In this document: positions 7,821 to 22,789 of the stretch, one piece after another
Layout: each line of letters opens with the position of its first letter
Numbering within the stretch: the stretch's first letter is position 1
IMG/VR virus record: IMGVR_UViG_3300045926_000283
Location: 6,497-70,496 of that record
Direction: 5' to 3' (one strand)
Source: a virus
DNA: 64,000 bases
Notes under the pieces: generated by a model
Databases searched by the model: none
Told to the model about the DNA's origin: nothing
What the model saw: the letters and a program-made list of their open reading frames with translations, nothing else
Translations under genes and position numbers: made by a program

Positions 7821-7848
7821 TCCACCCCCAATCCGGGGGGCAACTCGA

Positions 7849-8917: not shown

Positions 8918-8965
8918 CGGTCTCTCCTCTCTCTCTCTCTCTCTCGCTCTCGCTCTCGCTCTCTT

Positions 8966-9181: not shown

Positions 9182-9247
9182 AGTGTTCTCGCTCGCTCCT
9201 CTCGTGCTGCCGGCCAGCGACGACCGGCAGCACTCTCTGTGATAAGT

Positions 9248-9690: not shown

Positions 9691-9893
9691 CGCCGCACCC
9701 ACAGCTTCCCGACGACTTCGGCGTCGTCGTTCTCTTCCACGATGTCGTAGGTCTCGCTGAGGAACTGTTCATAGTCCCCGTCGTCGAGCGCCTTGTCCGC
9801 CAGCTCCTTCAGCCGTGTGATCGCGCCCTTGCAGGCGTCGTAGAACCGGATCTCGTTGTCGAAGCTCGGCTCGAACTGCAGGGTGATCTTCAT
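9687..9893 (-). CDS. hypothetical protein
   Basis: 68 aa acidic ORF, ATGA overlaps. Confidence 0.65.
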   Translation of the reverse strand: MKITLQFEPSFDNEIRFYDACKGAITRLKELADKALDDGDYEQFLSETYDIVEENDDAEVVGKLWVRR

Positions 9894-10276
9894 CGCTCAC
9901 CTGCCTTCTTCAGGAAGGCCGGCTCGATCCCCTTCGCCTTCCTGGTCGCCGCCGCCTTGTTGGCGCCGCGCTTCCGGTTCACCGTCGCCGCCCCGTCTCG
10001 ATGCCGGGCCAGGACGCTGGTCACATCCGGCGGCAGCACGATCCGGTCGCCGCCCGTGGCGTCGTTCTTCTGCAGGAAGACCGTGTCGGACCCGTCGGCC
10101 CGCACGGTCTTGATCACCCAGGTGACGCTGTTACCGTAGGTGTCGATCAGCTCGACGATCGACTGCTTGGTCACCGCCGCCGGGTTGTTGCTGCACTTCC
10201 TCAGCGCGACGCTGTACTCGTCGCGCGGCAGGCTCGTGGTCAGGTCGGTGTCGACCCCCACGTTCTTCACGCTCAT
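9890..10276 (-). CDS. hypothetical protein
   Basis: MSVKNVGVDT; polypurine RBS. Confidence 0.7.
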   Translation of the reverse strand: MSVKNVGVDTDLTTSLPRDEYSVALRKCSNNPAAVTKQSIVELIDTYGNSVTWVIKTVRADGSDTVFLQKNDATGGDRIVLPPDVTSVLARHRDGAATVNRKRGANKAAATRKAKGIEPAFLKKAGER

Positions 10277-10301
10277 CGCTCTCGCTCCTCTCTGCTCGTT
10301 A

Positions 10302-10517
10302 TCACTCGAACTCGACATCCTGCCGCACCATCACCGACGTCGTTCCGTCGCCCGGTCCGAACAGGTACGTGTCGTCGGCCGGGATCGGCTTCGCATAGCG
10401 GCGATTGCCGACGTACCGCTCGGCGGCGGCCAGCGCCGCTTCGCGGGTGGGGTACTGCTTCTCCGTGTTGCTGTTCAGGAAGTAGCAGGTATAGGTCTCC
10501 AGGCGCTTGACGGCCAT
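10302..10517 (-). CDS. hypothetical protein
   Basis: MAVKRLETY; TGATG coupling. Confidence 0.6.
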   Translation of the reverse strand: MAVKRLETYTCYFLNSNTEKQYPTREAALAAAERYVGNRRYAKPIPADDTYLFGPGDGTTSVMVRQDVEFE

Positions 10518-10765
10518 CAGACCACGCCCCGGATCCGCGCCTCGATCAGCCGCAGCTGCGTCAGCATCTCGCGCAGCCGCTGCTCGCCCTGCTTCCTCGG
10601 CAGCCAGTCGCCGCCGCGCTCGCGGTTCACCGCGAGATCGACCGCGTTCTGCTGATACGCGCGGAACTGCCGCACGTACTTCGCGCACGCCTTCGCCAGC
10701 AGCTCCAGCTCGTCGTACTTGTCGAGATGCGGCTCGTCTCGCCGCACCTCCTGCGTTCTGCTCAC
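10517..10765 (-). CDS. hypothetical protein
   Basis: GTG start after structured element and RBS. Confidence 0.65.
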   Translation of the reverse strand: MSRTQEVRRDEPHLDKYDELELLAKACAKYVRQFRAYQQNAVDLAVNRERGGDWLPRKQGEQRLREMLTQLRLIEARIRGVV

Positions 10766-10781
10766 TCGCTCCTCTCCTCTC

Positions 10782-10840
10782 GGAGTCGGTCATCGACTCC
10801 GCACGCGGTCCGAACCTCGGCTCGGACCGCGCACGCAACC
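10782..10840 (-). repeat. Structured intergenic element, copy A
   Basis: GGTTGCG..GCGGTCCGAGC-CGAG-GTTCGGACCGC..GCGGAGTC..GACTCC then RBS. Confidence 0.75.
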
Positions 10841-10842
10841 GA

Positions 10843-11073
10843 TCACCCCTGCTCGCTTGTTAGCTCCTTCGTCACGTCGAACTGCAGCACGACCTCGGTC
10901 TCGGAGTCGTGCTCAACCCACCTCCTCACGGCCGGGTAGCGCAGATCGTGGCTGGTCATCCCCTCGACCTCGGCCTCGGCTAGCTGCTCGGCCGCTTCCA
11001 TCGTCTCCGCCTCGTAGACCTTGACGAACGTCGTCGTCGTGATCCGGTGCGCCAGTACTTCAAACCTCGCCAT
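10843..11073 (-). CDS. hypothetical protein
   Basis: 76 aa ORF, polypurine RBS. Confidence 0.7.
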   Translation of the reverse strand: MARFEVLAHRITTTTFVKVYEAETMEAAEQLAEAEVEGMTSHDLRYPAVRRWVEHDSETEVVLQFDVTKELTSEQG

Positions 11074-11097
11074 TGCTCGTGCTCCTCTCTCTCTCCC

Positions 11098-11364
11098 TCA
11101 GACTGCCCTGAGGATCTCGACGTCCCGCCAGCGCACCCCACCCGGCTGCCCGTACACCGCCTCCCCGACCTTCAGCCTGAGCAGCTGCCGGCCGGTCTCG
11201 TCCCGTAGCTCCGCGCTCGCCACCGTGGCGTGGACGTGCTCGGTGCCTTCGAGGATGTCCCACATCCTCGCCTGCTTCGCCAGCCGCGCGTGATAGGCGA
11301 CGTGGACCGGGCCGACGTAGACCTTCACGCGGTACAGCTTCGTCACCGCTCGCTCACTCATCAC
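11098..11364 (-). CDS. hypothetical protein
   Basis: 88 aa ORF, polypurine RBS. Confidence 0.65.
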   Translation of the reverse strand: MMSERAVTKLYRVKVYVGPVHVAYHARLAKQARMWDILEGTEHVHATVASAELRDETGRQLLRLKVGEAVYGQPGGVRWRDVEILRAV

Positions 11365-11381
11365 TCACTCCCCTCTCTCGC

Positions 11382-11591
11382 TCAGTAGTTCATCGAGTAG
11401 TCGAAGTCGCCGCCCTCCGCCCATCGCCGCTCCAGCCGCTTCTGGCACTTCACGCAGATCGAGCTGGTCGCCTTCAAGGGCAGCCGCTTGCCGCACTCCA
11501 CACACGTCCACCGTTCCCGCCCTCGGCTGTCGAGCGTCGGGCAGTCGCCTGCCTGATGCCCGCAGCAGGGGAAGTCTTCACACCTCGCCAT
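11382..11591 (-). CDS. Cys-rich small protein
   Basis: MARCEDFPCCGH...CVEC...CVKC. Confidence 0.7.
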   Translation of the reverse strand: MARCEDFPCCGHQAGDCPTLDSRGRERWTCVECGKRLPLKATSSICVKCQKRLERRWAEGGDFDYSMNY

Positions 11592-11626
11592 CACGCACGC
11601 TCCTCTCTCGCTCTCTGCTCTCGCTC

Positions 11627-11854
11627 TCAGACCAGCTTCTCGTTGTAGGCCGGCGTCACATGCCCGGCGAGGATGACCACGATGGACCACGCCCGCGCGT
11701 GCCCGTTCTCGTCGTTCTCCTCCTCGGGCGTCAGCTCGAAGTCGCGGGCGTCTCGGCCCTCGAACGGCTTCACGAAGATCTCGCCGACCGCACTCGGATG
11801 ATCGAGGTACAACCCGATCAGCGTGTACGGCTTCCGCTCCTGCTGCTCACTCAT
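11627..11854 (-). CDS. hypothetical protein
   Basis: GGGAGGAGAGCG leader. Confidence 0.65.
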   Translation of the reverse strand: MSEQQERKPYTLIGLYLDHPSAVGEIFVKPFEGRDARDFELTPEEENDENGHARAWSIVVILAGHVTPAYNEKLV

Positions 11855-11866
11855 CGCTCTCCTCCC

Positions 11867-12328
11867 TTACCTGACACTCGGCGGAACATAGATGCCCCGC
11901 ACCCGCCCGTTGTTCGCGTCCTCGTGGCTCGTCCCCCGCGGCACCAGCCGCAGCACGGCGCCCCGCGGGTCGCCGTTGAACGCCGGCTGCAGCTCGGTCT
12001 TGGCGAGCAGCTGCTCGACCTTCGACTCCGCGTAGCAGCTCGGGCAGCGCCGCTCCCGCTTCCGCCTGACGCCCTTGCCGTCGGCGTACGGCACTTCCTC
12101 GACCACCACCGGGCGGAAGCTCGCCGGCACGTAGCCGCTCTGGCACTTCGGGCAGTAGTCGACTTTGCGCTCGCCGTTATCCGCCGGCCAGTCGCCGTTG
12201 CACTCGGCCACCGCGAGCCGCTGCAGCGTCGTCGCGTAGCGCAGCAGCTTGCGGCTGGTCTCGATGTCCAATCCCGCCTTGGTCGCGGCGACGATGAACT
12301 CGTCGCGCTCCCGTGTGTAACTCATCAT
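11867..12328 (-). CDS. hypothetical protein with Zn-ribbon insert
   Basis: LQRLAVAECNG..CPKC..CPSC..GDPRG. Confidence 0.75.
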   Translation of the reverse strand: MMSYTRERDEFIVAATKAGLDIETSRKLLRYATTLQRLAVAECNGDWPADNGERKVDYCPKCQSGYVPASFRPVVVEEVPYADGKGVRRKRERRCPSCYAESKVEQLLAKTELQPAFNGDPRGAVLRLVPRGTSHEDANNGRVRGIYVPPSVR

Positions 12329-12386
12329 CGCTCTCTCCTCTCACGCTCTCTGTCTGACTGTTGTATCACGCTGGGTTATCGGTCGT

Positions 12387-13043
12387 TCACGCGGTCTTAC
12401 GCAGCCAGATCACGTTGGCTGGCTTGAGCGGGCTGCTCCCGTGGTAGACCAGCCCGATCCGTCCCTTGCCCTGCTGCGCCGGCTTGTCGTTCTTGTTGCC
12501 GTCGATGTACTTCGCTCGGCGCCGGTCGGCGTGACTGGCGAAGATGCGCGAGTGCGGCTTGCTGTGGTCGATCTGGTGATCGAGCTTGCCGCCAACGCTC
12601 TGGATCACCGTGAAGTGCGCCGGCTTCCTGCTCCAGTCGAGATGCAGGCTCTTGGTGTAGCAGTACCACGCGCGATCCGGGAATCGCGCGATGATCCTGA
12701 ACCAGCAGTCGAGATACGCCTGGCTGAAGAAGTCGCCGCTGTCGTGCAGCCGGATACTGCGCTGCTTGATCCGGTGGGTGAGGTCGTCGATCGCCAGCTC
12801 CTCGAAGCGGGCGAGGTCGGTTCGCGCTACGGCCAGATTCGCCTCTCGTGTCCGTCTTGCGTCGGGCATGAGAAAGCGACCCTGCCTCGCGTAGCACAGG
12901 GTCGCGCAGCCACCGGCCTGCGGACAGACAGCAAAGCCGTCCGCAGACCGGAACGCCGGGAGGTTGAAGCTGACAGTGCGCGTCTTACGGAGCTTGCGGT
13001 TGTTGACCGACCAGTAGAGCCGCTCCGCTCGACGCCTGCTCAC
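12387..13043 (-). CDS. GP88-family (radical-SAM-like) protein
   Basis: N.KL, F.LPA, CP....C...CYA, RLHDSGDF, YTK motifs; GTG start. Confidence 0.75.
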   Translation of the reverse strand: MSRRRAERLYWSVNNRKLRKTRTVSFNLPAFRSADGFAVCPQAGGCATLCYARQGRFLMPDARRTREANLAVARTDLARFEELAIDDLTHRIKQRSIRLHDSGDFFSQAYLDCWFRIIARFPDRAWYCYTKSLHLDWSRKPAHFTVIQSVGGKLDHQIDHSKPHSRIFASHADRRRAKYIDGNKNDKPAQQGKGRIGLVYHGSSPLKPANVIWLRKTA

Positions 13044-13477
13044 TCCGCCGCCTTGGCGACGAGGCGAGGCTCGATCTCGCAGCCGAACAGCATCGCGTAG
13101 CGGTCGGTCTTGTCGGGCGGCGACACCACGCCGCCCGCCGCGCTGATCGTGCGCCGCCGCGCGATCCGCTCCCTGGTCTGCCGCTTCCACCACTCCGGCG
13201 GCTGCCGCAGACTGAGGTACACGCCCAGCCACCCGTGCTCGATGAAGTAGCCCTTCACCGTGGCCGGGCCGAGGTTGTTCATGTAGGCAGTGACCTTCGT
13301 CCCCACCGTGGGCGGCGCCTGCTCGCCGCTCCACAGCGCGACCTCGTCGCTGTAGTTCTCGATGATCGGATCGCCGTGCTGATCCTTCACCGAGGTGCTG
13401 TAGACGGGGCGCTGCCACGCGGGCCGCGTCGTCTGCAGCTCGTACCGGGTCACACCCGGTTTCCTCTGCTCACTCAT
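13040..13477 (-). CDS. hypothetical protein
   Basis: MSEQRKPG start after (GA)n leader. Confidence 0.7.
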   Translation of the reverse strand: MSEQRKPGVTRYELQTTRPAWQRPVYSTSVKDQHGDPIIENYSDEVALWSGEQAPPTVGTKVTAYMNNLGPATVKGYFIEHGWLGVYLSLRQPPEWWKRQTRERIARRRTISAAGGVVSPPDKTDRYAMLFGCEIEPRLVAKAAE

Positions 13478-13498
13478 GGACTCACTCTCTCTCTCTCT

Positions 13499-13572
13499 GG
13501 AGTCGCTCTCTCGTGCGCTCCGCTGGGCGAGGCTCGACCCACTGCGGTCGAGCCCCGCACGCAGCACACGAG
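13499..13572 (-). repeat. Structured intergenic element, copy B (divergent)
   Basis: GTGCTGCG..GGGCTCGACC/GGTCGAGCCT..GCGGAGCGCAC..GACTCC then RBS. Confidence 0.6.
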
Positions 13573-13584
13573 CTACTTGCTCTC

Positions 13585-13785
13585 TCAGCTCGCCGTGTTC
13601 AGCCGCTCGCACAGCTCGTCCACCTCGCCGAAGTCCAGCGGCGCGTCGTCCTCGAAGTGGCCGAGGAACCGCTCCGGGATCTCGCCCGTGCCCTCCTCCA
13701 GCACTTCCTCCTGCCAGAACCTGAGCGCCACCAGGACCGTCGCCAGCTCACGGTCGGTCAATCGTCCTGCCACTCGTTTGCCCAT
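13585..13785 (-). CDS. hypothetical protein
   Basis: LTDRELATVLVALRFWQ...EVDELCERLN. Confidence 0.7.
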   Translation of the reverse strand: MGKRVAGRLTDRELATVLVALRFWQEEVLEEGTGEIPERFLGHFEDDAPLDFGEVDELCERLNTAS

Positions 13786-13806
13786 CGCTCTCTCCTCTCT
13801 GCTCTC

Positions 13807-14232
13807 TCAGCCGTAGATCAGCGTGCCGAACACGGTCAGCTGCAGCACCACGTCAGCGGTCTCCGCGTCGTCGTTCTCCTGCAGGAAGTTGGCGAGGTGG
13901 CTCATCGCGCCCGGGAAGGGCATCGGCTTGCCGCCGCCGTTGTCGGGCATCATCCCGGACACCGCGCACGCGCCCAGCCGCTCCAGCCCCTTCGCCAGAT
14001 CCTCGGCGGCGATCATTCGCCGCACCCTCGGCCCGTCGTCGTGCGATTCGTGCTCGACGACCTCGACGCCCAGGTAGTCGAGATTGACCGCCTGATGGAC
14101 CTTGCGGAAGCCCGCCCAGTAATTGGACCCGCCCTCGACCGCACTGCACAGCAGGTCTCTCAACCGCTGCACGTCGATGTCGATGGGGACGACGATCCGC
14201 ACCCGCTCCTCCTTCACGCTCTCGTCACTCAT
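13807..14232 (-). CDS. phage hypothetical protein
   Basis: A.EGGSNYW...DAETADVVLQ..VFG.LIYG. Confidence 0.75.
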   Translation of the reverse strand: MSDESVKEERVRIVVPIDIDVQRLRDLLCSAVEGGSNYWAGFRKVHQAVNLDYLGVEVVEHESHDDGPRVRRMIAAEDLAKGLERLGACAVSGMMPDNGGGKPMPFPGAMSHLANFLQENDDAETADVVLQLTVFGTLIYG

Positions 14233-14248
14233 GGTTCTCTCTCCCTCT

Positions 14249-14314
14249 GGAATCGACTCACCGACTCCGCACGACGGCTGGAACCTCGTTCGGCTCCAGC
14301 CGTGCCGCGCAATC
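14249..14314 (-). repeat. Structured intergenic element, copy C
   Basis: GATTGCG..ACGGCTGGAGC/GTTCCAGCCGT..GCGGAGTC..GATTCC then RBS. Confidence 0.75.
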
Positions 14315-14333
14315 GTCGAATCGCTCACCCGCC

Positions 14334-14549
14334 TTAGTCCTCGTCGGTCAACCACTCCCCGCACTCGTCGCACTGGTAGTAGCAGTCGAAGTCCTGGTAC
14401 GGCGGATGCTCGGCGTCGTAGGCGAAGCAGTTGCCTCGCCCGTCCGGCCCGTCGCCCATCGCCCCGTACTTCTCCTCGGCCTCGTCCTCGGTGGGACGAC
14501 AGCCGACGCAGAAGTCGTACGGGTCATTCGCGCTCGTGTAGATCCGCAT
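14334..14549 (-). CDS. Cys-containing acidic small protein
   Basis: DFCVGC...CDECG. Confidence 0.7.
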   Translation of the reverse strand: MRIYTSANDPYDFCVGCRPTEDEAEEKYGAMGDGPDGRGNCFAYDAEHPPYQDFDCYYQCDECGEWLTDED

Positions 14550-14570
14550 CGCTCTCCTCGCTCTCTTTCC

Positions 14571-14768
14571 TCACTGCTCCTCGAACTCCGCCTTCTTGCT
14601 CAGGAAGCCCGGATCGTGCGTGGCGTTCCACGCCTTGCAGATTGCCCGCGCCTCCTCGATGGTCTTGACGTTCTTGCGGATCGTCCGCCGCTTCCCTGCG
14701 CCGGGCTCGCGTCCGCCCGGCCATGCCGGGTTGGCGATCCACCACGTCCTCGTGAACACTCGGTACAT
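14571..14768 (-). CDS. hypothetical protein
   Basis: MYRVFTRTWW...EEARAIC..WN. Confidence 0.7.
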   Translation of the reverse strand: MYRVFTRTWWIANPAWPGGREPGAGKRRTIRKNVKTIEEARAICKAWNATHDPGFLSKKAEFEEQ

Positions 14769-14790
14769 CACTCGCTCCTCTCTCGCTCTC

Positions 14791-15069
14791 TCAGCCTTTC
14801 GTCTCATCGAACGGCTGCCCGACATAGGTCTCGCAGCACTCCCGCGAGCAGAACAGTCTCCCGCCCGCAATCGGCCCGCTCTGCCTCTTCCCTTGGTCAT
14901 CATCGACGTGGAAGCGGTACAGCCAGTGGCCTGTCACCTGCCCGCCTCGCCGCCGCTCTCTCCGTCCGCCGCACCAGTCGCACGTCGAGATCGTGACTCG
15001 CACGACCTCCGCCATGATGCTGTGGCGGGCGAAGCTGTTGCGTACTACGCTCCTCCTCCTCTCGCTCAT
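14791..15069 (-). CDS. Zn-finger small protein
   Basis: CDWCG...FCSREC. Confidence 0.7.
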   Translation of the reverse strand: MSERRRSVVRNSFARHSIMAEVVRVTISTCDWCGGRRERRRGGQVTGHWLYRFHVDDDQGKRQSGPIAGGRLFCSRECCETYVGQPFDETKG

Positions 15070-15083
15070 CTCGCTCTCCCTCT

Positions 15084-15138
15084 GGAGTCAGTGACTCCGC
15101 GAGGGGCTGGAACCTCGGCTCCAGCCCTCCCCGCAGTC
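15084..15138 (-). repeat. Structured intergenic element, copy D
   Basis: GACTGCG..GGGCTGGAGC-CGAG-GTTCCAGCCC..CGCGGAGTC-ACT-GACTCC then RBS. Confidence 0.75.
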
Positions 15139-15143
15139 GCCGA

Positions 15144-15374
15144 CTACTCAGGGTCGAGCTGCGACCCGTACGCCCAGTGCCCGTTGTTCAGGCCCACCGT
15201 GCAGTAATCGGCTCGCACTCTCGCCCACGGCAGCTCCTGCACCTCACGGCCATACTTCTCGTGCGGCCGGTCGGTCTCATCGATGCTCGTGACCACGGCC
15301 AACCGCGCTGGCTGGCTGCCCCACGCGCCGCGCCACCTCACGCGGTCGCCCACTCGCAACATCTGCTCTCCCAT
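15144..15374 (-). CDS. SH3-like small protein
   Basis: LRVGDRVRWRG.WG...NGHWAYG.Q. Confidence 0.7.
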   Translation of the reverse strand: MGEQMLRVGDRVRWRGAWGSQPARLAVVTSIDETDRPHEKYGREVQELPWARVRADYCTVGLNNGHWAYGSQLDPE

Positions 15375-15395
15375 CGCTCTCTCCTCTCGCTGCTC

Positions 15396-15890
15396 TCAGC
15401 ACGCCTCCATCCACTCCGTCACATCCAGCCCGCACGGCAGCTCATCGCGCCTCGCGGCGAACACGCTCACGTGCTCGCCGTAGTGCTGGCCGTACCGCTG
15501 GATGATCCGCACCCGCTCCGCCACGCTCTCTCGCTCCCAGCACTCGCCCGCCGCGACGTCGATCCGCTGGCTGTAGTCGTCCTCGTCGAGGATTGGGTAC
15601 TCGCTCAGGCTGCCCTCGATCTCCTCCGCCTCGCGGTACTTGTCCTCGTCCTTCGGGTCGACGAGGATCAGCTCGAACCAGCCGCAGGCCCAGTGCCCGA
15701 AGCGATGCACCTGCACGCTGTCGCTCTCGCCGCCGAGCTGCGCCAGCGCGACGGCGAAGTTGGACTGCGTCAGGTAGTCGCTGTCCCGCGTCTGCGAGTA
15801 CAGCACCTCGAAGTCGCTGATCCCGTGCCGCTCGCCGCCGAGGCCCGCCGGGTCGAACCCGGTCGGGCGGAACTCCCTGTACCTCTCCAT
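15396..15890 (-). CDS. phage hypothetical protein
   Basis: RDS..L..SNF...HWACGWFE...YPILDEDD. Confidence 0.75.
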   Translation of the reverse strand: MERYREFRPTGFDPAGLGGERHGISDFEVLYSQTRDSDYLTQSNFAVALAQLGGESDSVQVHRFGHWACGWFELILVDPKDEDKYREAEEIEGSLSEYPILDEDDYSQRIDVAAGECWERESVAERVRIIQRYGQHYGEHVSVFAARRDELPCGLDVTEWMEAC

Positions 15891-15912
15891 CGCTCTCTCC
15901 CCTCTCGCTCTG

Positions 15913-16170
15913 CTACTCCGTCACCCGATCCCAGCTCCGCCACTCCGGCGCGTGAACCGTCCACGTCGTCCGTCGCTGGCCCTCCAGCGGAATCCCCAGC
16001 GTGTCCCACGTCGGGACCTCGCCCTTGTGCTCCTTGCAGTAGCGGCACGAGCAGCCGCCGTCGATCACCCGGCGCAGCTCGTAGGGGATCCGCACGTAGA
16101 CCGATCCGCGCCATACCCGGAGCACGTCCCAGCCTTGCAGGCTGATATTACACTCCGTCATATCCTCCAT
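15913..16170 (-). CDS. hypothetical protein
   Basis: CSCRYC; polypurine RBS. Confidence 0.65.
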   Translation of the reverse strand: MEDMTECNISLQGWDVLRVWRGSVYVRIPYELRRVIDGGCSCRYCKEHKGEVPTWDTLGIPLEGQRRTTWTVHAPEWRSWDRVTE

Positions 16171-16184
16171 CGCTCTCTCCCTCT

Positions 16185-16240
16185 GGAGTCGAAGACTCCG
16201 CGAAGGGCCTGAACCCTCGGCTCAGGCCCAACGCGCAATC
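16185..16240 (-). repeat. Structured intergenic element, copy E
   Basis: GATTGCG..GGGCCTGAGC-CGAGG-GTTCAGGCCC..CGCGGAGTC-TTC-GACTCC then RBS. Confidence 0.75.
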
Positions 16241-16259
16241 TCATCGACCCTGCTCTCGC

Positions 16260-16811
16260 CTACGGCCGTCTCACTTCCTGATCGTCCTCGACCTGCCACA
16301 CCCGGTACGGCGCTTTCTCCTCCTCGAACCAGTCATGGCCCAGGCAGTAGGTCTTCACCCCGCCCGCCTCGAACGCGTCCAGATCCCCCGCGCCCGGGCA
16401 GCACGGCGAGCAGAACCGCGCCGTGGTGTAGTACGGCGAGCGGATCACGTAGATCCCGAGGCTGCTCGTCTCCAGCACGTACCCCTCCGCCTCGTAGCGG
16501 TAGGTGTCCTCGCTCTCCTCGTAGCGGTCGTTGAAGCGATCCTCGACGTCGCCCCAGATGCCGCTGACGTGCTCCTCGACCTGTGCCGCGTCGGCAATGT
16601 CGAAGTCGTCGACCAGCACTCGGCTGAGCGCCAGCCGGATCTGGTCCTTGACCGCGTCGACCGCTGCCGCGTGCGTCAGGTTCTCGCCGCTCGTCCAGAT
16701 GTCCTGCGTGGCCTCTGGGTTCGGCGTGTGCGGGCTGATCACCCCGTACCGGATCCCGGTCGCGTGATCCACGTTGGCCAATCCCCGCCCATAGTCAATC
16801 CCTGCACTCAT
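16260..16811 (-). CDS. phage hypothetical protein
   Basis: GIDYG.G.AN.D..TGIRYGVI...CSPC.PGAGDL. Confidence 0.75.
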   Translation of the reverse strand: MSAGIDYGRGLANVDHATGIRYGVISPHTPNPEATQDIWTSGENLTHAAAVDAVKDQIRLALSRVLVDDFDIADAAQVEEHVSGIWGDVEDRFNDRYEESEDTYRYEAEGYVLETSSLGIYVIRSPYYTTARFCSPCCPGAGDLDAFEAGGVKTYCLGHDWFEEEKAPYRVWQVEDDQEVRRP

Positions 16812-16937
16812 CGCTCTCTCCTCTCGGGCCCGGATCGTCCTTCATCCGTCCCCCACAGGGCTCACGCGACCCACGCTGAGCCCTCTAGGCGACAGACCGG
16901 GCAGAGTCTCGCCCTGCCCGGACCAGATCGCTCCTTG

Positions 16938-17183
16938 CTAGGCCGCCTTGGTCTTCAGCTCCGCGTCGTTGGCCTTGATGAAGGCCTTGACCTGCTCGGC
17001 CATCGCCAACAGCTTCTCCCACTGCTCCCGGTACAGCGTGACCGGGAATCTGCCCAACCCATAGACGCTCAGTCCGCCCTTGGGGCTGACCTTGAGCGTG
17101 ACCTTGGGCGTGCGCGCGGCCTTCAGCCTCGCGTTCTCTGCGATCAGCCGTGCGATCTCCGCTTGCATCTGTTCGTTGCTCAT
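16938..17183 (-). CDS. small coiled-coil protein, first gene of the early array
   Basis: LKVSPKGGLSVYGLGRFPVTLYREQW; AGAGGAG RBS. Confidence 0.8.
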   Translation of the reverse strand: MSNEQMQAEIARLIAENARLKAARTPKVTLKVSPKGGLSVYGLGRFPVTLYREQWEKLLAMAEQVKAFIKANDAELKTKAA

Positions 17184-17196
17184 CTCTGCACTCCTC

Positions 17197-17741
17197 TGGG
17201 CTTCGATGGAAGCCCTAATGCCGTCTGGGCTATGAACCAGACTGCCGCATTTCAGGCGAGCTTCCCATGTAGGGTTCCCCTCGCCTGTCACCTGCGTCCG
17301 CGCGCGTACACAGCTCGCGCTGTGGGTGATACGCTCGCGGTGTGAGCGGTGCCTACTCCGGTGCCTGTGGGGGACTCAGGGTCGCGTGGTCGCCCGCGAC
17401 GGAAGGCTTTAAGACTCACTGGGCGTTTAGCGTGTGAGCGATCAGCGCCGTCGTAGGCTCGCCTGTCCTACCCGTTCTGCCGGTCTGGTCGTACTCCGGC
17501 TCCCCTGCCCGCCTTGGGTGTGGCCGTCGGCAAGGGCGTTTCGGCTATGGCTGCCTGCCTGTAGTCTCAGTGTCGGACGGCTACTGACTCCCCGGAATGG
17601 CTTCGTCGGGGCGGAGCGTTCGTCGTCCGGCATGCCTTGGGGCAGACCGCGTTTGTCAGAGAACTCGAACCCACCGCGTCCCGCAGGCGACCAAGGGCCC
17701 TGTCGGGGCACCGGCGAACCGGTGCGGAGCGGCGTGCTGCC
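17197..17741 (-). ncRNA. Putative long structured leader RNA
   Basis: No credible ORF; many hairpins including GCACCGG-UUCG-CCGGTGC; begins right after the sigma54-type promoter. Confidence 0.5.
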
Positions 17742-17749
17742 TGCCAAAT

Positions 17750-17767
17750 TTGCAGGCACCGTGCCAA
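17750..17767 (-). promoter_or_regulatory. sigma54 (-24/-12) promoter
   Basis: Minus strand TTGGCACGGTGCCTGCAA matches TGGCAC-N5-(T/C)TGCA with correct GG/GC spacing. Confidence 0.65.
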
Positions 17768-18124
17768 ACGCAAAAACGGCCGGTTTTCGGCACCTTGCGC
17801 CGTTTGTTCGCCTTGAAAATCTGCCGGTTTCGGTAGAAAAAACCGACTTTTGTCTGCCTGCAGGCAGATTGCACAGAATTGCACGGACGTCGTCCCGCTA
17901 ACTCCTTCGCTATCAACGAGTTCCGAGGACTGGTTCCGATAATCTAGGTTATGTTAACTAGCTCGGCTGTAGTGGTCCTGTAGGCCGTAGGACCAGGGCA
18001 TTGTCCGGGGGGTAGGCCCGCGCGACCTAAGGACATGTCCGGGACTCAGCACAATTTTTCTCACAAATTTGTCGCGCAATTTTTCGGCGCGCGAGCGATT
18101 ACTCTCTGTGATAGCCTCCCCCGC

Positions 18125-18337
18125 ATGAGCGAACAGATCGTCCGCACGCTGCAGAACGAGATCATCGACCTCGACGATCGCCTCAGTCGCCTCGCCGAGC
18201 GGGTGCGGACGGTCAACGAGCGGCTGCAGATCGACCCGGGCGGCAGCGATCGCCTCGATGCGATCGACGAAGCGCTCGTGCAGCTCGCGGCGCGCGTCGC
18301 CGCGCTCGAACGCGAGGTCGCCAGCCATGAGCGGTGA
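18125..18337 (+). CDS. coiled-coil hypothetical protein
   Basis: MSEQIVRTLQNEI; typical codon usage. Confidence 0.6.
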   Translation: MSEQIVRTLQNEIIDLDDRLSRLAERVRTVNERLQIDPGGSDRLDAIDEALVQLAARVAALEREVASHER

Positions 18338-18956
18338 TGGCGATCCGTTCGATCACAACGCGGAGTGTCGCTTCTGCGACGAGCAGGCGGGCCACCGCGC
18401 CGACTGCCCCTGGCTGCTGGCGCTGCAGCAGTGTGTGCAGGCGAAAGACGAGGAGCTGGTCAAGGCCAACGAGAAGGTCGAGGAGGCGCGTGAGGCGGCG
18501 CGCAGCTACGCGGCCGAAGTGGTCGAGTACGAGCAGTCCTTCGAGCGGTACCACAAGGCGTCGATGGCCCTGATGGACGCCTACAAGCGTGCCCACCCGG
18601 ACGTGCCGAAGGACGTCTGGCCCGACGTCGGTGTCGTCAACGCCTGGGCCGTCGATCAGATCGAGAAGCACCTGACCTACCTCGAAGCCGAGCAGATGAA
18701 GCACGAAGTCGGGGCGCTGCAGGCGTGGAAGGACGCCGTCATCGACGCCCTGGTGGTCGACTGCATCTACACCAATGAGCATGAGACCGACCCGCGCCAA
18801 GCGATTGCCGACCTGTGTGCGTGGGAGGTGAAGATCGCGCTCGACCCGGCGGTCAGCGAGCCGGTCGCGAAGCTGCATCAGCGCATCGCCGAGCTGGAAA
18901 ACGCGCTTGCCGCTGTCGAACGAGCCCTGCGCGACGAGCAAGAGCACCCGCGATAA
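18327..18956 (+). CDS. hypothetical protein
   Basis: CRFC..H..DCPW plus coiled coil. Confidence 0.65.
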   Translation: MSGDGDPFDHNAECRFCDEQAGHRADCPWLLALQQCVQAKDEELVKANEKVEEAREAARSYAAEVVEYEQSFERYHKASMALMDAYKRAHPDVPKDVWPDVGVVNAWAVDQIEKHLTYLEAEQMKHEVGALQAWKDAVIDALVVDCIYTNEHETDPRQAIADLCAWEVKIALDPAVSEPVAKLHQRIAELENALAAVERALRDEQEHPR

Positions 18957-19029
18957 CCTCCCGTCATCGCTGAGGGGGGAGGGGGGCTGGACAAACCCCA
19001 GCCTCGTCTGCGTATCCTGCCTGCCGTCC

Positions 19030-19401
19030 ATGTTCAAACGGCTGGCCGGCGCGTTCCTGCTGCGGCGCCTCACGCGCGATCTCTCCGCGATCAGCGCCGC
19101 GCTCGATCGCCAGAACGTCCTGCTCGCGCGTCTGGTCGACCACCTCTGCCCCGCCCCGCCCGACGATGCGCCCACCGTCGCCACCAGCACCGATACCGGC
19201 GTCACCTTCCTCGATCCGATCGAGATGGGCCTCTCGCTCGACTACATCCAGAAGATGCGCGCGGCGACCGGCCACACCCCCGACGACGAGGAGATCCTCG
19301 TCTACCTCGCCGACGAGAAGACCCACGACCTGCACCTGCGGATGGCGGAGCGTGAGGCCGATCTCGCACGCCTCACCGCGGCTCGGGAGCGTCGGCGATG
19401 A
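19030..19401 (+). CDS. hypothetical protein
   Basis: MFKRLAGAF; coupled to the next ORF. Confidence 0.65.
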   Translation: MFKRLAGAFLLRRLTRDLSAISAALDRQNVLLARLVDHLCPAPPDDAPTVATSTDTGVTFLDPIEMGLSLDYIQKMRAATGHTPDDEEILVYLADEKTHDLHLRMAEREADLARLTAARERRR

Positions 19402-19544
19402 CGGCGCCGCTCAGGTGTGCCCGCTGCCGTCGGCCGGTCCTCATCGAGTGGCGCCGCTCAGGCCCCTCGCGGGTGCCGCTGCGGGCGTTCCGCTGCCCGC
19501 ACTGTAAGCGTGCCCTCTACCAGCGGAAGGAGGCGCGCGGCTGA
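19398..19544 (+). CDS. 48-aa Zn-ribbon protein (not in ORF track)
   Basis: MTAPLRCARC...CPHCKRALYQRKEARG; ATGA and TGATG coupling. Confidence 0.6.
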   Translation: MTAPLRCARCRRPVLIEWRRSGPSRVPLRAFRCPHCKRALYQRKEARG

Positions 19545-20416
19545 TGAAAAGGAAGTCCGGTCTCGTCCCCGCCGCCGCGCGCGTGCCGCTCGCGCTCAGC
19601 GACGCCGACCAGGCCCTCTCCGATGAGGCGGTGCAGACCTTCGTCGCCGAGGTCGGCGGCCGCCACGCCCTCACCGGCGCGCTCGCGGTGGGCGCCACCT
19701 CGCCCGACGTGCAGCAGATCGTGCGCCTGCTGCTCGACCCGCGCTACGACCAGACCTCGCTCCCGCGTCTCTGCCGCCTCGCCGGCCTGACCGTCGCCGA
19801 CTTCTTCGTCGCTTACCGCAAGGCGCTGGTCGCGCGCTCGCACATCGCTGCCACGCATCTGGTCGCCGGGCAGATCCTCACCGTCGTCCAGGACATCCTC
19901 CACCGCGCCGCGCCGCATCACGTCCCGTGCGACGCCTGCTACGGCTGCGGCTCGATCACGCCGTCGCCGACGCGGCAGGTCCCGAACCCCTCACCCGGGC
20001 CGTGCCCGCGGTGCCAGGGCAGGGGGCAGATCACCCTCCTGCCCGATCTCGATCGGCAGAAGGTCGCGCTCGAACTCGCGCAGCTCACGCAGAAGAGCGG
20101 AGGCATCGTCGTGCAACAGCAGACCACCGTCACCCAGCCGCAGCGGCCGCTCCAGGCGCCCGGCGCCCTCGAACAGCTCCAGCAGGCGGTCAGCCAGATC
20201 CTCTACCACGAGCCGATCACCCTCAGTCCCGACGCCGACGAACCGCCCGCCGAGGTCGACGAGCCGCCCGCCGACGACGACGCAGAAGACGAGCCCGAGG
20301 ATAGCGAGCAGCCGGACCCCTCCGACGCCGAAGCGCCGCCGCCCGAGCGCGTCTTCGACGAGCCGCCCAACGTGGCCCAACCCCTTCGCAGCCACCCCGG
20401 CCCCGATGCTGCCTGA
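19544..20416 (+). CDS. putative terminase small subunit with CxxCxGxG zinc module
   Basis: Position before terL; CDACYGCG/CPRCQGRG; acidic tail. Confidence 0.5.
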   Translation: MKRKSGLVPAAARVPLALSDADQALSDEAVQTFVAEVGGRHALTGALAVGATSPDVQQIVRLLLDPRYDQTSLPRLCRLAGLTVADFFVAYRKALVARSHIAATHLVAGQILTVVQDILHRAAPHHVPCDACYGCGSITPSPTRQVPNPSPGPCPRCQGRGQITLLPDLDRQKVALELAQLTQKSGGIVVQQQTTVTQPQRPLQAPGALEQLQQAVSQILYHEPITLSPDADEPPAEVDEPPADDDAEDEPEDSEQPDPSDAEAPPPERVFDEPPNVAQPLRSHPGPDAA

Positions 20417-20506: not shown

Positions 20507-22789
20507 ATGTACGACCCGCGGATCATTGAGGCGGTCGAGGCCCGCCTCCTGCAGCAGCCGTCGCTGCGCCTGCAGTTCCCCGACGGCATCCCGCGCTACT
20601 CGGTCGCCGACTCCGCGGCGCTGACCGCGACCTTGATGAACGCCGTCGACGAGGACAACCGTGTCGCGCGTCCGCTCACCGAGGACGAGCAGGCGTTCAT
20701 CCGCGCGACCAAGCTCAGGGTCACCTTCGACTTCCCCTACTTCGCCGAGCGCTTCGCCTATATTGATGATCAGGGCTCGGGCCTCCGCCCGCTCTACCCG
20801 CTCTGGGAGTCGCAGCACTTCGTCCTCAAGGCGCTCGGCCGGCTCGAAGTCAGCCGCGCCAGCACGACGCATCCCGACGGCCTCCTGGTGAACGTGCTCA
20901 AGGCGCGGCAGCTCGGCGTCTCGACCCTCGCCGAAACCCTGGTCGCGCACCGCCTCCTCACCCAGCCGCACGTCCGCGCCATCTCCGGCGCCGACGTCGA
21001 GGAGCAGGCCGGCTACCTCTTTCGTATGGTGGTCCGCATCTACGACGAACTCCCCTGGTTCCTCAAGGTCGATCGCCTCTACTTCAACAAGAATCGCGAG
21101 CTGACCCTCAGCAACCAGAGCTTCCTGAAAACCGCGTGGGGCAAGTCCACCCGCGGCGCCCTGCAATCAGTGACCGGCCAGGAAGGCACCAAGGGCGCGA
21201 TCGGCCGCGGCCAGACCTTCGGCGTCGTCCACATCTCGGAACTCGCCACCTGGGACAACCCGCAGCAGCTCGACACAGCGCTCTTCCCCGCGATCCCGAT
21301 GTCGCGCCTCACCCTGGTCGTCCTCGAATCGACCGCCGAGTATGCCGGCGACTGGTGGCACAAGCACTGGCTCACCACCGCCGACGGTGACGGCCGCTTC
21401 ATCAACGTCTTCATCCCGTGGTACGCCGAGCCGACCAAGTACTCCCTCCCCGCGCCCCTCGACTGGACGCCCCTGACCACCACCACGCAGCACGCCACCA
21501 AGTGCGAGACCGACTCGCCGCGCTGGTTCGACGGCAAGACCGTCACCCTCTCCCGCGATCAGCTCTACTGGTACGAGCGCACCCGCGCCTTCTACGAGAA
21601 GAAGGGGGAACTCTACAAGTTCTTCAAGGAGTACTGCGCCGACGATCAGGAGTGCTTCCAGTACGCCGGCCGCTCGGTCTTCACCCTCGACCAGCTCGCG
21701 ACGATCGACCGCGCCGGCAGCCAGAAGCCGCTCCTCGATGTCTGGATGGTCGAGCCCGCGCGCGAGATCGCCGAGCTGCGCCAGGTCCGCACCGACGACG
21801 AGCCGGCCTCCACCGTGCGCCGCCCGGTGCCGCCGCTCAGCCCGCGCCTCGCCCAGACCGCCTCCCCGCTCGCGCATCTCACCTTCCCGGTGCCGCCCGG
21901 CTACGGCTTCCACCGCCTCTCGCCCGCGGCGCTCAAGGCCCTGCCCTCGCTGCGCCAGTCGGTCCTCTCGATCTGGGAGTATCCGCGCCCCCGCGGCACC
22001 CGCCGCTACGTCCTCGCGGCCGACGTCTCTGACGGCCTCGGCCAGGACTACTCGGTCGTCGACGTGATCCGCCTCCCGACCATCGAGGAACCCGCCGAGC
22101 AGGTCGCGCAGTACATCACCAATCGCCTCGACCCCAAGCAGCTCGCCTTCGTCTGCGACGCGATCGGCCGGCTCTATCCCGACGAAGACGGTGTGGAGGC
22201 GCTCGCCGCGATCGAGACCAACGGCCACGGCCTCGCCACCCAGGACACGATGCAGCTCCATCTCGGCTACTCCTCGTTCTACGTCTGGGAGTACGCCGAC
22301 TCCGCCACCCCCGAGCGGCGCTACTCGACCAAGATCGGCTGGGTCACCACCAACCGCACCCGGCCGCTGCTGCTCGCCAGCTTCTACGGCGCGATCCTCG
22401 CCGAGGACGCGATCACCGCCCAGCCCGACTTCATCCTCAACTCGCCGATCACGCGCGGCGAGCTGCGCCACTTCATCACCGAGTCGACGATTGGCGAAGC
22501 AGAAGCCGCCCGCGGGCAGCACGACGACTGCGTGATGGCCGCCGCCATCGGCTACTACGTCGCCTGGCGGATGGCCGGCGGCGAGATCGAGCCGATCGCC
22601 GAGCGCCGTCGCCGCCGTGCCGCGCTGCGCGCCCGCGCCGCGACCGAACGCCAACCGGTCGGCGACTACCGCAACACCGGCCTCACTATCGAGGAAGCCG
22701 ATCATCACCAGGAGGACGACGATGAGTTCGTCGACGACGTCTCCGCCAACCCCGGCGCGCTCTTCTTCGACGAGCGGCAACGGATCTAA
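20507..22789 (+). CDS. terL: Terminase large subunit
   Basis: LKARQLGVST, VVHISE, VLESTA, ADVSDG..DYS, IETN, HDD motifs. Confidence 0.92.
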   Translation: MYDPRIIEAVEARLLQQPSLRLQFPDGIPRYSVADSAALTATLMNAVDEDNRVARPLTEDEQAFIRATKLRVTFDFPYFAERFAYIDDQGSGLRPLYPLWESQHFVLKALGRLEVSRASTTHPDGLLVNVLKARQLGVSTLAETLVAHRLLTQPHVRAISGADVEEQAGYLFRMVVRIYDELPWFLKVDRLYFNKNRELTLSNQSFLKTAWGKSTRGALQSVTGQEGTKGAIGRGQTFGVVHISELATWDNPQQLDTALFPAIPMSRLTLVVLESTAEYAGDWWHKHWLTTADGDGRFINVFIPWYAEPTKYSLPAPLDWTPLTTTTQHATKCETDSPRWFDGKTVTLSRDQLYWYERTRAFYEKKGELYKFFKEYCADDQECFQYAGRSVFTLDQLATIDRAGSQKPLLDVWMVEPAREIAELRQVRTDDEPASTVRRPVPPLSPRLAQTASPLAHLTFPVPPGYGFHRLSPAALKALPSLRQSVLSIWEYPRPRGTRRYVLAADVSDGLGQDYSVVDVIRLPTIEEPAEQVAQYITNRLDPKQLAFVCDAIGRLYPDEDGVEALAAIETNGHGLATQDTMQLHLGYSSFYVWEYADSATPERRYSTKIGWVTTNRTRPLLLASFYGAILAEDAITAQPDFILNSPITRGELRHFITESTIGEAEAARGQHDDCVMAAAIGYYVAWRMAGGEIEPIAERRRRRAALRARAATERQPVGDYRNTGLTIEEADHHQEDDDEFVDDVSANPGALFFDERQRI

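What the first reader, a model, noticed from the sequence alone, without database searches (positions are those of the whole stretch)
17184..17745. Approximately 560-nt densely structured non-coding leader heading the early operon
Seen: no ORF with phage-like codon usage. On the minus strand there is a series of helices: GCACCGG-UUCG-CCGGTGC, CCTTGG/CCAAGG, CGCCCTTG/CAAGGCG, GTAGG/CCTAC, GTCGCG/CGCGAC, CAGGCGAG/CTCGCCTG, GTCTGG/CCAGAC, and GGGCTTC/GAAGCCC abutting the RBS. A possible long-range closure (CAG..CGCCG with CGGCGCTG) spans about 300 nt. Inference: a large ncRNA or an RNA antiterminator (functionally like HK022 put) for a roughly 9-kb operon.
Basis: partly seen in the sequence, partly recalled or inferred. 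Interest (0 to 1): 0.75.

Follow-up and report, generated by a model that had tools for sequence, protein, structure and literature searches.

The report
Long untranslated leader, partly hairpin-rich
The stretch is a real non-coding gap in front of a soil phage's early genes, probably transcribed as part of a long leader, but only its last 260 bases fold unusually well, nothing like it is conserved elsewhere, and nothing shows that it is an antiterminator.

Summary
Window 17184-17745 is non-coding. It makes up 60% of a 941-nt divergent gap (17184-18124) between a leftward operon of small unknown genes and the rightward packaging/structural operon of an uncultured ~70-kb temperate soil phage.

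The "dense structure" is only partly real:
- The gene-proximal 262 nt (17184-17445) fold better than shuffles on both strands (z -3.8 and -3.3).
- The other 300 nt fold no better than chance (z +0.6).
- The phage's own coding RNA scores about the same as the whole stretch (z about -2.6 versus -2.3).

No Rfam family matches. No nucleotide homologue turned up in 222 related loci, so covariation cannot be tested.

New context:
- A 17-bp repressor-type operator (TATCAC-N5-GTNATA) sits at the far end of the gap (18097-18113). Its other copies lie only in the early region and at a divergent HTH-gene switch.
- Three metatranscriptome runs hold exact fragments of the gap.
- Relatives keep 0.4-1.2-kb unalignable spacers that fold better in the leftward sense.

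Best reading (about 0.5): the stretch is part of a ~0.9-kb repressor-controlled early leader with a hairpin cluster abutting the ribosome-binding site, analogous to the mycobacteriophage L5 Pleft leader RNA. A put-like antiterminator is unsupported.

The parts
17184..17745 (-). The stretch as given: non-coding and G+C-rich (66%). On the leftward strand it is U-poor (A 119, C 190, G 184, U 69).
17184..17445 (-). Gene-proximal hairpin cluster, the only part that folds better than shuffles. MFE equals centroid. Stems include 17400-17395/17386-17381, 17340-17298 (nested, with CACAGC-GCGA-GCUGUG), 17287-17280/17260-17253, GUCUGG/CCAGAC and 17215-17209/17204-17198.
   Evidence: z -3.78; plus strand z -3.27
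17446..17745 (-). Distal G+C-rich part. It folds no better than chance as a whole. It holds the isolated GCACCGG-UUCG-CCGGUGC hairpin (17725-17708) and one GCAGGCAG copy (17551-17558).
   Evidence: (z +0.61)
17191..17197 (-). Shine-Dalgarno AGAGGAG of the first leftward gene. It starts directly after the last hairpin and lies 7 nt before ATG 17183-17181.
   Evidence: sequence read directly
16938..17183 (-). First gene of the leftward operon: 81 aa, no Pfam family, a widespread hypothetical family in soil phages and prophages.
17737..17868 (.). Cluster of GCAGGCAG sites: the perfect 16-bp palindrome TCTGCCTGCAGGCAGA at 17853-17868, and the split inverted repeat GCCTGC-N7-GCAGGC at 17738-17758. 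Four of the window's 7 copies lie within 17551-17867. Read as likely protein-binding sites.
17998..18059 (+). Sequence block conserved across the phage family: GCATTGTCCG, a G-rich stretch, then GGACTCAGCACAATTTTT. ATTGTCCG and TCA are invariant in 16 of 16 aligned sequences. There is no consensus RNA structure, so I read it as a DNA site of unknown role (late-operon control or packaging).
18097..18113 (-). 17-bp operator-type site TATCACAGAGAGTAATC, 12 nt from the ATG of the first rightward gene. It marks the candidate repressor-controlled promoter for the leftward operon.
18125..18337 (+). First gene of the rightward operon (70 aa, coiled-coil, no Shine-Dalgarno). It is followed by 18327-18956, 18907-19401, 19544-20416 and the large terminase gene at 20507-22789.

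Best explanation
The stretch is the gene-proximal two thirds of a 941-nt divergent control region in a temperate ~70-kb soil phage. It most likely has no product of its own. I propose it is transcribed leftward as part of a ~0.9-kb untranslated leader of the early-type operon (81-aa gene at 17183 and the genes below it).

Proposed order of events:
- Transcription starts at or near the repressor-type operator at 18097-18113.
- The RNA crosses the family-conserved block and the GCAGGCAG sites.
- It then crosses ~300 nt of unremarkable G+C-rich RNA.
- It ends in a ~260-nt chain of stable hairpins whose last stem stops at the ribosome-binding site.

I propose the hairpin chain acts in cis on the early transcript, through stability after processing, partial termination, or access to the first ribosome-binding site. 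This would parallel the abundant, processed ~500-nt leader RNA between Pleft and gene 89 of mycobacteriophage L5.

Shown:
- The stretch is non-coding.
- The hairpin cluster is there and folds better than shuffles.
- The operator motif and its distribution.
- Exact fragments of the gap are present in RNA libraries.

Inferred:
- The start site and the strand of the RNA.
- Any effect of the hairpins.
For: 1. Non-coding.

2. Structured proximal domain: z -3.78, 0 of 200 shuffles as good, MFE equals centroid.

3. Operator motif.
- The exact 13-mer TATCACAGAGAGT occurs 3 times in the window, all on the minus strand: 18113, 9244 and 3369.
- TTATCACA occurs 4 times against 0.16 expected.
- The 17-bp pattern TATCAC-N5-GTNATA with at most 1 mismatch hits 5 places in the 70.5-kb record, against 0 for the reversed control.
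- All 5 places, and the 9228-9244 copy, lie at window positions 3353-18113. None lies in the 39-kb rightward operon.
- The perfect palindrome lies between divergent HTH genes: 2959-3180 (HTH_3, E 7.6e-11) and 3427-3756 (HTH_31, E 3.5e-6).

4. RNA libraries. Three metatranscriptome runs give 7 exact or near-exact pieces of 135-156 nt on 16000-19200. Four lie in the gap, three in the leftward genes, and none in the rightward genes at 18125-19200. One piece reaches 17975, so a leftward RNA would start upstream of that point.

5. Relatives. Eleven relatives with unalignable spacers, plus the window, give mean z -2.14 in the leftward sense and -0.95 in the rightward sense. Leftward is the more negative in 11 of 12 over 450 nt and 10 of 12 over 260 nt. 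Thirteen coding controls give -0.65 and -0.61, with sense the more negative in 7 of 13.

6. Close pair L091/L133. The 240 nt next to the leftward gene are 93.8% identical (225 of 240), against 88.5% at third codon positions (322 of 364).

7. Precedent: PMC5712189 (passages and section 11 read).
Against: - In the window itself the fold excess is the same on both strands (-3.78 and -3.27). This fits DNA inverted repeats as well as RNA structure.
- The phage's own coding RNA has z about -2.6.
- The RNA evidence is weak. The pieces are Logan contigs without strand, depth is 3-9, and DNA carry-over is not excluded. No silent control stretch could be laid because the cap was 1 call. The runs were chosen for holding this very stretch.
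- No sigma-70-type promoter was found on the minus strand, even at 8 of 12 matches.
- The operator is nearly palindromic and only 12 nt from the rightward ATG, so it could control the rightward operon instead.
- One relative pair (L091/L133) has a perfect TTGACA about 135 nt upstream of its leftward gene. Leaders in relatives may therefore be short.
- Two of 12 spacers (L083, L135) show no fold excess.
- The z-scores from my own scripts rest on 25-50 shuffles each.
Confidence: 0.5

Rival explanations
1. The region works only at the DNA level. It would be a regulatory or packaging region (operators, the family-conserved block, perhaps cos/pac), and the G+C-rich 562 nt would be a tolerated spacer. 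Its inverted repeats would be incidental or protein-binding, and any RNA would have no function.
For: - The fold excess of 17184-17445 is equal on both strands.
- The clustered GCAGGCAG palindromes, the operator and the block are sequence elements without a consensus RNA structure.
- The gap lies directly upstream of the terminase module.
- Spacers of relatives are unalignable, and part of the L091/L133 spacer is only 64% identical (77 of 120).
- Relatives carry tandem 22-nt repeats beside the block.
Against: - The hairpins of 17184-17445 all differ in sequence, unlike repeated binding sites.
- Relatives' spacers fold better in the leftward sense in 11 of 12 cases, while coding controls show no such bias.
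- Fragments of the gap occur in RNA libraries.
- No family contig listed ends at the block. This is an incidental reading of that table, not a test.
Confidence: 0.25
2. The transcript of the gap is mainly a free-standing, abundant, stable non-coding RNA that mostly terminates before the first gene and acts in trans on the host, as proposed for L5, D29 and StarStuff.
For: - The layout matches: a repressor-controlled site, about 0.5-0.9 kb without genes, a leftward early operon, divergent from the late operon (PMC5712189).
- In run X8 the contig depth in the gap (9.1 at 17544-17699) is at least that in the genes (5.7 at 16000-16134). The tool warns that contig depths cannot rank regions.
Against: - Abundance, ends and stability could not be measured.
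- There is no sequence similarity to any deposited phage over 16900-18400, apart from a 123-nt coding match.
- No U-tract terminator lies before the first gene.
Confidence: 0.12
3. The leader holds a put-like (or nut-like) RNA that makes RNA polymerase resistant to terminators throughout the ~9-kb operon.
For: - The position is downstream of a likely early promoter and ahead of a long operon.
- Stable paired hairpins exist.
- In all three exact copies the operator 13-mer is followed by a hairpin of different sequence (sequence read directly).
Against: - No second related copy of any leader segment exists in the window beyond the operator motifs.
- There is no Rfam match.
- No module is conserved with relatives.
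- Terminator-like sites at 4500-18200 number 7 against 5.2 expected, and only one is on the operon's strand.
- Put RNAs are ~70 nt with two stem-loops and occur as two similar copies (PMC9378689, passages read).
Confidence: 0.05
4. The gap is mainly the leader of the rightward (late) operon. It would be transcribed from a plus-strand promoter such as TTGTCT-18-CAGAAT (17850-17879), whose spacer holds the GCAGGCAG palindrome, or from further left.
For: - This is the only relaxed sigma-70-type match in 17150-18200, and it is on the plus strand.
- GGGACTCAG occurs exactly twice in the window, both on the plus strand, at 17371 and inside the conserved block at 18041.
Against: - No exact RNA-library piece lies in the rightward genes at 18125-19200, whereas three lie in the leftward genes.
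- The RNA piece 17825-17975 starts upstream of that promoter's predicted start.
- Relatives' spacers fold worse in the rightward sense.
- This promoter would leave 17184-17850, including the whole stretch of the finding, untranscribed on the plus strand.
Confidence: 0.06
5. The stretch hides a real protein-coding gene or a recently decayed one.
For: ORFs of 79-155 aa are open on both strands.
Against: - GC1/2/3 are flat.
- There is no homologue.
- No Shine-Dalgarno plus start codon pair lies inside the stretch (read directly).
- The 369-aa leftward gene that relatives carry at this position has no trace in the window (best tblastn E 0.61, located elsewhere).
Confidence: 0.02

Closest known systems
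Non-coding leader RNA between the Pleft early promoter and gene 89 of Cluster A mycobacteriophages (L5, D29, StarStuff; PMC5712189)
   Same: Both lie in temperate phages. Both have a repressor-bound site at the head of a leftward early operon of small genes, several hundred gene-free bases before the first gene, and a position back-to-back with the rightward structural operon. Sequence diverges fast among relatives. RNA from the region is detectable.
   Different: - No sequence similarity.
- The operator here is a 17-bp dyad, not an asymmetric 13-bp stoperator.
- Abundance, ~90% termination, processing and toxicity are untested here.
- The genome ends are not mapped here, and the candidate start lies on the far side of the family-conserved block.
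- The host is probably an acidobacterium, not a mycobacterium.
HK022 putL/putR antiterminator RNAs (PMC9378689)
   Same: A cis RNA downstream of an early phage promoter, made of stem-loops, ahead of a long operon.
   Different: Put RNAs are ~70 nt with two specific stem-loops, and occur as two similar copies. Here there is a ~900-nt gap, no duplicated module, no conservation, and no sign that the operon contains terminators to overcome.
Lambdoid operator-controlled early promoters (17-bp dyad operators bound by CI/Cro-type HTH proteins). The comparison with lambda's operator half-site is recalled, not taken from a call.
   Same: Both have 17-bp sites with 6-bp half-sites (TATCAC ... GTGATA), a perfect copy between divergent HTH genes, and further copies at the heads of early transcription units.
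   Different: - The sites are single, not tandem triplets.
- Additional copies sit inside the early operon (9228, 12364, 16146).
- The site that concerns this finding lies ~900 nt from the first gene.
- Binding has not been tested.

Membership tests
HK022 put RNA | A ~70-nt RNA of two stem-loops with family sequence similarity | tested here: inconclusive
   No Rfam family reached its gathering score. At E up to 10 there were only 3 chance-level hits: a snoRNA, a twister-P5 fragment and another snoRNA. I did not check whether Rfam 15 holds a put model.
HK022 put RNA | Two related copies, one downstream of each early promoter | tested here: not met
   A self-search of the 941-nt gap against the window found no second copy of any segment, apart from the 13-16-nt operator and palindrome motifs.
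HK022 put RNA | Suppresses terminators within the downstream operon | tested here: inconclusive
   There are 7 terminator-like sites at 4500-18200 against 5.2 expected, and 1 is on the operon's strand. Terminators without U-tracts would be missed.
L5-type Pleft leader ncRNA | A gene-free region of several hundred nt between a repressor-controlled early promoter and the first gene of the leftward early operon | tested here: met
   The gap 17184-18124 is gene-free. An operator-type site lies at 18097-18113, and its other copies lie in the early region and at the HTH switch. The promoter itself is inferred.
L5-type Pleft leader ncRNA | A very abundant, stable, processed RNA, with most transcripts ending before the first gene | not testable with these tools
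   Only Logan contigs of three RNA runs were available. They give exact pieces in the gap, but contigs show neither level, ends nor strand.
L5-type Pleft leader ncRNA | Sequence homology to Cluster A right-end regions | tested here: not met
   blastn (word size 11) of 16900-18400 against 50,697 phage records matched 2 records, only over a 123-nt coding piece.
Any curated cis-regulatory RNA (riboswitch, leader, ribozyme, intron) | A match to an Rfam covariance model | tested here: not met
   Searches (window; ten relatives' loci, 124 kb): no match at gathering score.
Conserved structured RNA (any new family) | Homologues with compensatory base changes | tested here: inconclusive
   No homologue in 222 loci: blastn gave 3 hits of 22-38 nt at E 0.33, and nhmmer gave none at E up to 1. 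DNA run X6, which holds 95% of the words, shows no differences in the gap. The only related pair (L091/L133, a different spacer) shows 1 compensatory and 2 one-sided pair-keeping changes in 67 predicted pairs.

The most novel reading that the evidence does not exclude
This uncultured family of ~70-kb soil phages (hosts probably Acidobacteriota) may keep, at the head of its early operon, a 0.4-1.2-kb leader RNA whose sequence turns over completely while leftward-sense folding is preserved. That would be a fast-evolving counterpart of the abundant, host-toxic Pleft leader RNAs of mycobacteriophages. In the window, such an RNA would run from the operator at 18097-18113 to the hairpin cluster at the ribosome-binding site.
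Probability: 0.15. Interest if true: 0.55.

Novelty: new member of a known kind. Interest (0 to 1): 0.3.

Why it matters
If the leader reading holds, long non-coding early leaders so far studied in mycobacteriophages would also occur in an unrelated, uncultured lineage of soil phages. That would suggest a general early-infection RNA device rather than a mycobacteriophage peculiarity.

In practice the work also gives a regulatory map for an otherwise unannotated phage: the switch region, the operator set, and a family-conserved site upstream of the packaging genes.

As it stands, the stretch itself is an ordinary long, poorly conserved phage intergenic leader, and the specific antiterminator idea has no support.

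Tried and rejected
- Rfam on the window, on the gap at E up to 10, and on ten relatives: nothing usable.

- Homologue hunting for covariation. In each case the gap had no alignable counterpart.
  - blastn against deposited phages.
  - 80 viral and 80 metagenome loci encoding the 81-aa protein (best 65-70% aa identity).
  - 62 loci of terminase relatives (58-73% aa identity).
  - The 209-aa neighbour gave no locus.
  - The terminase found no prophage in genome contigs.

- Translated searches: tblastx gave only noise, and the ORF searches found nothing credible.

- Remnant of the 369-aa leftward gene that relatives carry: none.

- Long gaps upstream of 81-aa homologues as a general feature: rejected.
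  - My G+C-periodicity method over-called non-coding DNA in loci of 60-65% G+C.
  - In L071, L075, L078 and L080 an alignment shows a divergent gene and a true gap of only ~330 nt.
  - Many homologues have no gap at all.

- Sigma-70 promoter scans: none on the minus strand.

- Tandem repeats in the gap: none.

- Origin of replication in the gap: less likely. CTGGCGCAG repeats lie beside the helicase-type gene at 7690-7775.

- attP in the gap: less likely. A tRNA 3'-end fragment lies beside the integrase gene.

- Block as a structured RNA: 2 predicted pairs and no covariation.

- A part of 16000-19200 without RNA-contig cover is not evidence of silence.

- Supplements of the papers were not consulted.

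Full report
**What the window is**

The window is bases 6497-70496 of a 70,496-bp IMG/VR virus record that CheckV rates as complete. G+C is about 67%.

Codon-position G+C gives clear gene calls:
- A leftward run of small genes from 17183 down to about 7849.
- A rightward run from 18125 to about 57372. It holds the large terminase gene at 20507-22789 (phrog_2, E 4e-11).
- A DNA polymerase gene at 58045-61032 and an integrase gene at 62720-63997.

Of 16 leftward genes examined from 17183 down to 7852, none matches a family of known function.

No deposited phage is close. The best terminase identity is 26%.

The finding (17184-17745) lies in a 941-nt divergent gap, 17184-18124. It sits between the 81-aa first leftward gene and a 70-aa first rightward gene.

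The gap is non-coding:
- It shows no codon-position periodicity.
- The ORFs inside it have flat GC1/2/3 of 0.56-0.75, against GC3 of 0.86-0.97 in the 11 neighbouring genes.
- The 155-aa ORF has no relatives.
- The 105-aa ORF gives only three multi-stretch hits to very long proteins.
- tblastx against 222 loci gives only noise.

Five are kept in the predicted ensemble or MFE. Three are displaced by alternatives, and the proposed ~300-nt closure is not predicted.

Folding energy against dinucleotide shuffles:

| Segment | Strand | z | Shuffles at least as good |
|---|---|---|---|
| 17184-17745 (all 562 nt) | minus | -2.28 | 0 of 100 |
| 17184-17745 | plus | -1.05 | 14 of 100 |
| 17184-17445 (proximal 262 nt) | minus | -3.78 | 0 of 200 |
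| 17184-17445 | plus | -3.27 | 0 of 200 |
| 17446-17745 (distal 300 nt) | minus | +0.61 | 142 of 200 |
| 17746-18124 (A+T-richer 379 nt) | minus | -1.12 | 10 of 100 |

For the proximal 262 nt on the minus strand, the MFE is identical to the centroid.

Two 400-nt coding pieces of the same operon score z -2.59 and -2.68.

So "densely structured" holds for the last ~260 nt only. There it is a property of inverted repeats visible on both strands. The last hairpin (17198-17215) ends exactly where the Shine-Dalgarno AGAGGAG (17191-17197) begins.

**Known families and homologues**

Rfam gives nothing at gathering scores, and only three chance-level hits at E up to 10. Ten relatives' loci are also blank.

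I collected 222 related loci:
- 80 viral and 80 metagenome loci encoding the 81-aa protein.
- 62 loci with a related terminase.

blastn and nhmmer find no counterpart of the gap in any of them. DNA runs that hold the phage show no variants in the gap. Covariation therefore cannot be tested for this sequence.

**What surrounds the stretch**

*A conserved block.* Relatives with 58-73% identical terminases keep the order 164-aa gene, 290-aa gene, terminase. Upstream of it many show a long stretch without coding periodicity at a divergent junction.
- Their spacers are not alignable with one another or with the window.
- The exception is one block just upstream of the rightward genes.
- The window carries this block at 17998-18059.
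- In a 16-sequence alignment, ATTGTCCG and a downstream TCA are invariant.
- There is no consensus RNA structure, only 2 predicted pairs.
- I therefore read it as a DNA site of unknown role.

*GCAGGCAG sites.* Four of the window's seven GCAGGCAG copies fall in 17551-17867. They include a perfect 16-bp palindrome at 17853-17868.

*An operator motif.*
- The exact 13-mer TATCACAGAGAGT occurs three times, always on the minus strand: 18113, 9244 and 3369.
- TTATCACA occurs 4 times against 0.16 expected.
- As a 17-bp dyad (TATCAC-N5-GTNATA, at most 1 mismatch) it hits five places in the whole record. The reversed control pattern hits none.
- The perfect palindrome (window 3353-3369) lies between two divergent helix-turn-helix genes. 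I read that region as the phage's genetic switch.
- The other copies are at 3872-3888, 9228-9244 (two mismatches), 12364-12380, 16146-16162 and 18097-18113.
- All lie in the switch or along the leftward early region. None lies in the 39-kb rightward operon.
- The copy at 18097-18113 sits at the far end of the gap.

**Transcription**

Three metatranscriptome runs hold exact or near-exact pieces of 135-156 nt:
- In the gap: 17360-17508 (one difference), 17544-17699, 17568-17718 and 17825-17975.
- In the leftward genes: 16000-16134, 16472-16622 and 16700-16850.
- In the rightward genes 18125-19200: none. Only 35-41-nt partial matches with 5-6 differences occur there.

This fits a leftward transcript starting upstream of 17975. 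The evidence is weak for four reasons:
- Contigs carry no strand.
- Depths are 3-9.
- The runs were selected for holding this stretch.
- DNA carry-over could not be controlled.

**Family-level folding**

I could place the start of the leftward gene in 11 relatives: L083, L086, L091, L092, L094, L097, L099, L107, L109, L134 and L135.
- L133 was dropped as 93% identical to L091.
- L088, L095, L100, L106, L140 and the other terminase loci were not used. They lacked upstream sequence, or I could not place the leftward gene's start.

Results, including the window (12 spacers in all):
- The spacer next to that gene has mean z -2.14 in the leftward sense and -0.95 in the rightward sense.
- Leftward is the more negative in 11 of 12 cases over up to 450 nt and in 10 of 12 over 260 nt.
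- Thirteen coding controls give -0.65 (sense) and -0.61 (antisense), with sense the more negative in 7 of 13.

In the one close pair (L091/L133), identity varies along the gap:
- The 240 nt next to the gene are 93.8% identical, above the 88.5% at third codon positions.
- The next 120 nt are 64% identical.
- The block is 60 of 60.

These results suggest RNA-level constraint on the leftward transcript across the family.

Three caveats apply:
- Each z-score rests on 25-50 shuffles.
- Two spacers show nothing.
- The window's own signal is symmetric between strands.

**Mechanism and comparison**

The closest described case is the ~500-nt gene-free region between the repressor-controlled Pleft promoter and gene 89 in mycobacteriophages L5, D29 and StarStuff. 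According to PMC5712189 (passages and section 11 read):
- It yields the most abundant phage RNA.
- About 90% of transcripts end before gene 89.
- The RNA is processed to 100-400-nt species.
- The region is toxic to the host.
- Its function is unknown.

The layout here is the same. There is no sequence similarity, and none of the RNA properties could be measured.

The put comparison fails on what could be tested:
- No duplicated module.
- No conserved two-hairpin unit.
- No excess of terminator-like sites in the operon.

Put features were taken from passages of PMC9378689.

**Verdict**

The stretch is a real but mostly unremarkable non-coding segment. Its best reading is part of a long, repressor-controlled early leader with a hairpin cluster at the ribosome-binding site (confidence about 0.5). 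A DNA-only spacer is the main rival (0.25). Interest is modest. The operator map and the family-conserved block found on the way are the more concrete results.

Noticed in passing
window 2956-3930: Probable genetic switch. A 74-aa HTH_3 gene (2959-3180, minus) and an HTH_31 gene (from 3427, plus) diverge around a perfect 17-bp palindrome, TATCACAGAGAGTGATA (3353-3369). A variant, TATCACACAGCGTTATA (3872-3888), lies 40 nt before the plus gene at 3929.
   Followed up: partly
window 9228-9244, 12364-12380, 16146-16162: Further copies of the 17-bp operator-type site lie inside the leftward early region, at or near gaps between genes. None is in the rightward structural operon. The layout recalls repressor sites spread through early operons of other temperate phages.
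   Followed up: partly
window 17998-18059; L083 3850-3905 and 14 other loci: Family-wide conserved DNA block just upstream of the packaging/structural operon: ATTGTCCG, ~37-40 G-rich bases, then CCCG(A/G)N(C/T)TCAG and AATTTT. It has no RNA consensus structure. In several relatives tandem repeats flank it, such as four 22-nt repeats at L083 3764-3848. It may be a packaging site or late-operon control site.
   Followed up: partly
window 16805-16945 (minus strand): The 129-nt gap between the 81-aa and 183-aa genes holds two long hairpins (z -2.97 for the 141-nt stretch 16805-16945, which includes it; local 120-nt windows reach -5.5). This is the strongest local structure near the finding. It may be a terminator or attenuator after the first gene.
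   Followed up: partly
window 7690-7775: Three to four CTGGCGCAG repeats lie in the gap after the AAA_25 / primase-helicase-like gene (6588-7613). This is a candidate replication origin.
   Followed up: no
window 62507-62607: ARAGORN calls a 101-nt 'tRNA-Cys (aca)' beside the integrase gene. Its 3' part looks like a tRNA T-arm and acceptor end, so it is probably attP. An exact 33-mer from it occurs in 71 genome stretches, 57 of them titled Acidobacteriota lineages (many Vicinamibacterales), 7 Actinomycetota, 6 Thermotogota and 1 other. The host is therefore probably an acidobacterium.
   Followed up: partly
window 16938-17183: The 81-aa first gene belongs to a very widespread family with no Pfam family. 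More than 537 metagenome stretches encode relatives, in contigs from 40 to 72% G+C. Atlas clusters are labelled Acidobacteriota, Gemmatimonadota, Myxococcota and Binatota.
   Followed up: partly
window 18104-18127; L083 3992-4017; L106: GTGNTANNCT, seven bases, then ATG is shared by the window and two relatives at the start of the first rightward gene, which lacks a Shine-Dalgarno. It could be a -10 element for a leaderless message, overlapping the operator.
   Followed up: no
window 17396: RNA run X8 reads A where the DNA has G (one contig, depth 3.9). On the leftward RNA this turns a C-G pair of the 17395-17400/17381-17386 stem into U-G. It is a single observation and may be a strain variant.
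   Followed up: no
L083 2050-3157 and equivalents in L086, L091, L107, L134, L135: In place of the window's 81-aa gene, relatives carry a conserved ~369-aa leftward gene next to the gap. From recall it looks like a DUF932-type protein. A second group (L092, L094, L097, L099) carries a different ~350-390-aa gene. The early-side neighbour of the gap is therefore mosaic.
   Followed up: partly
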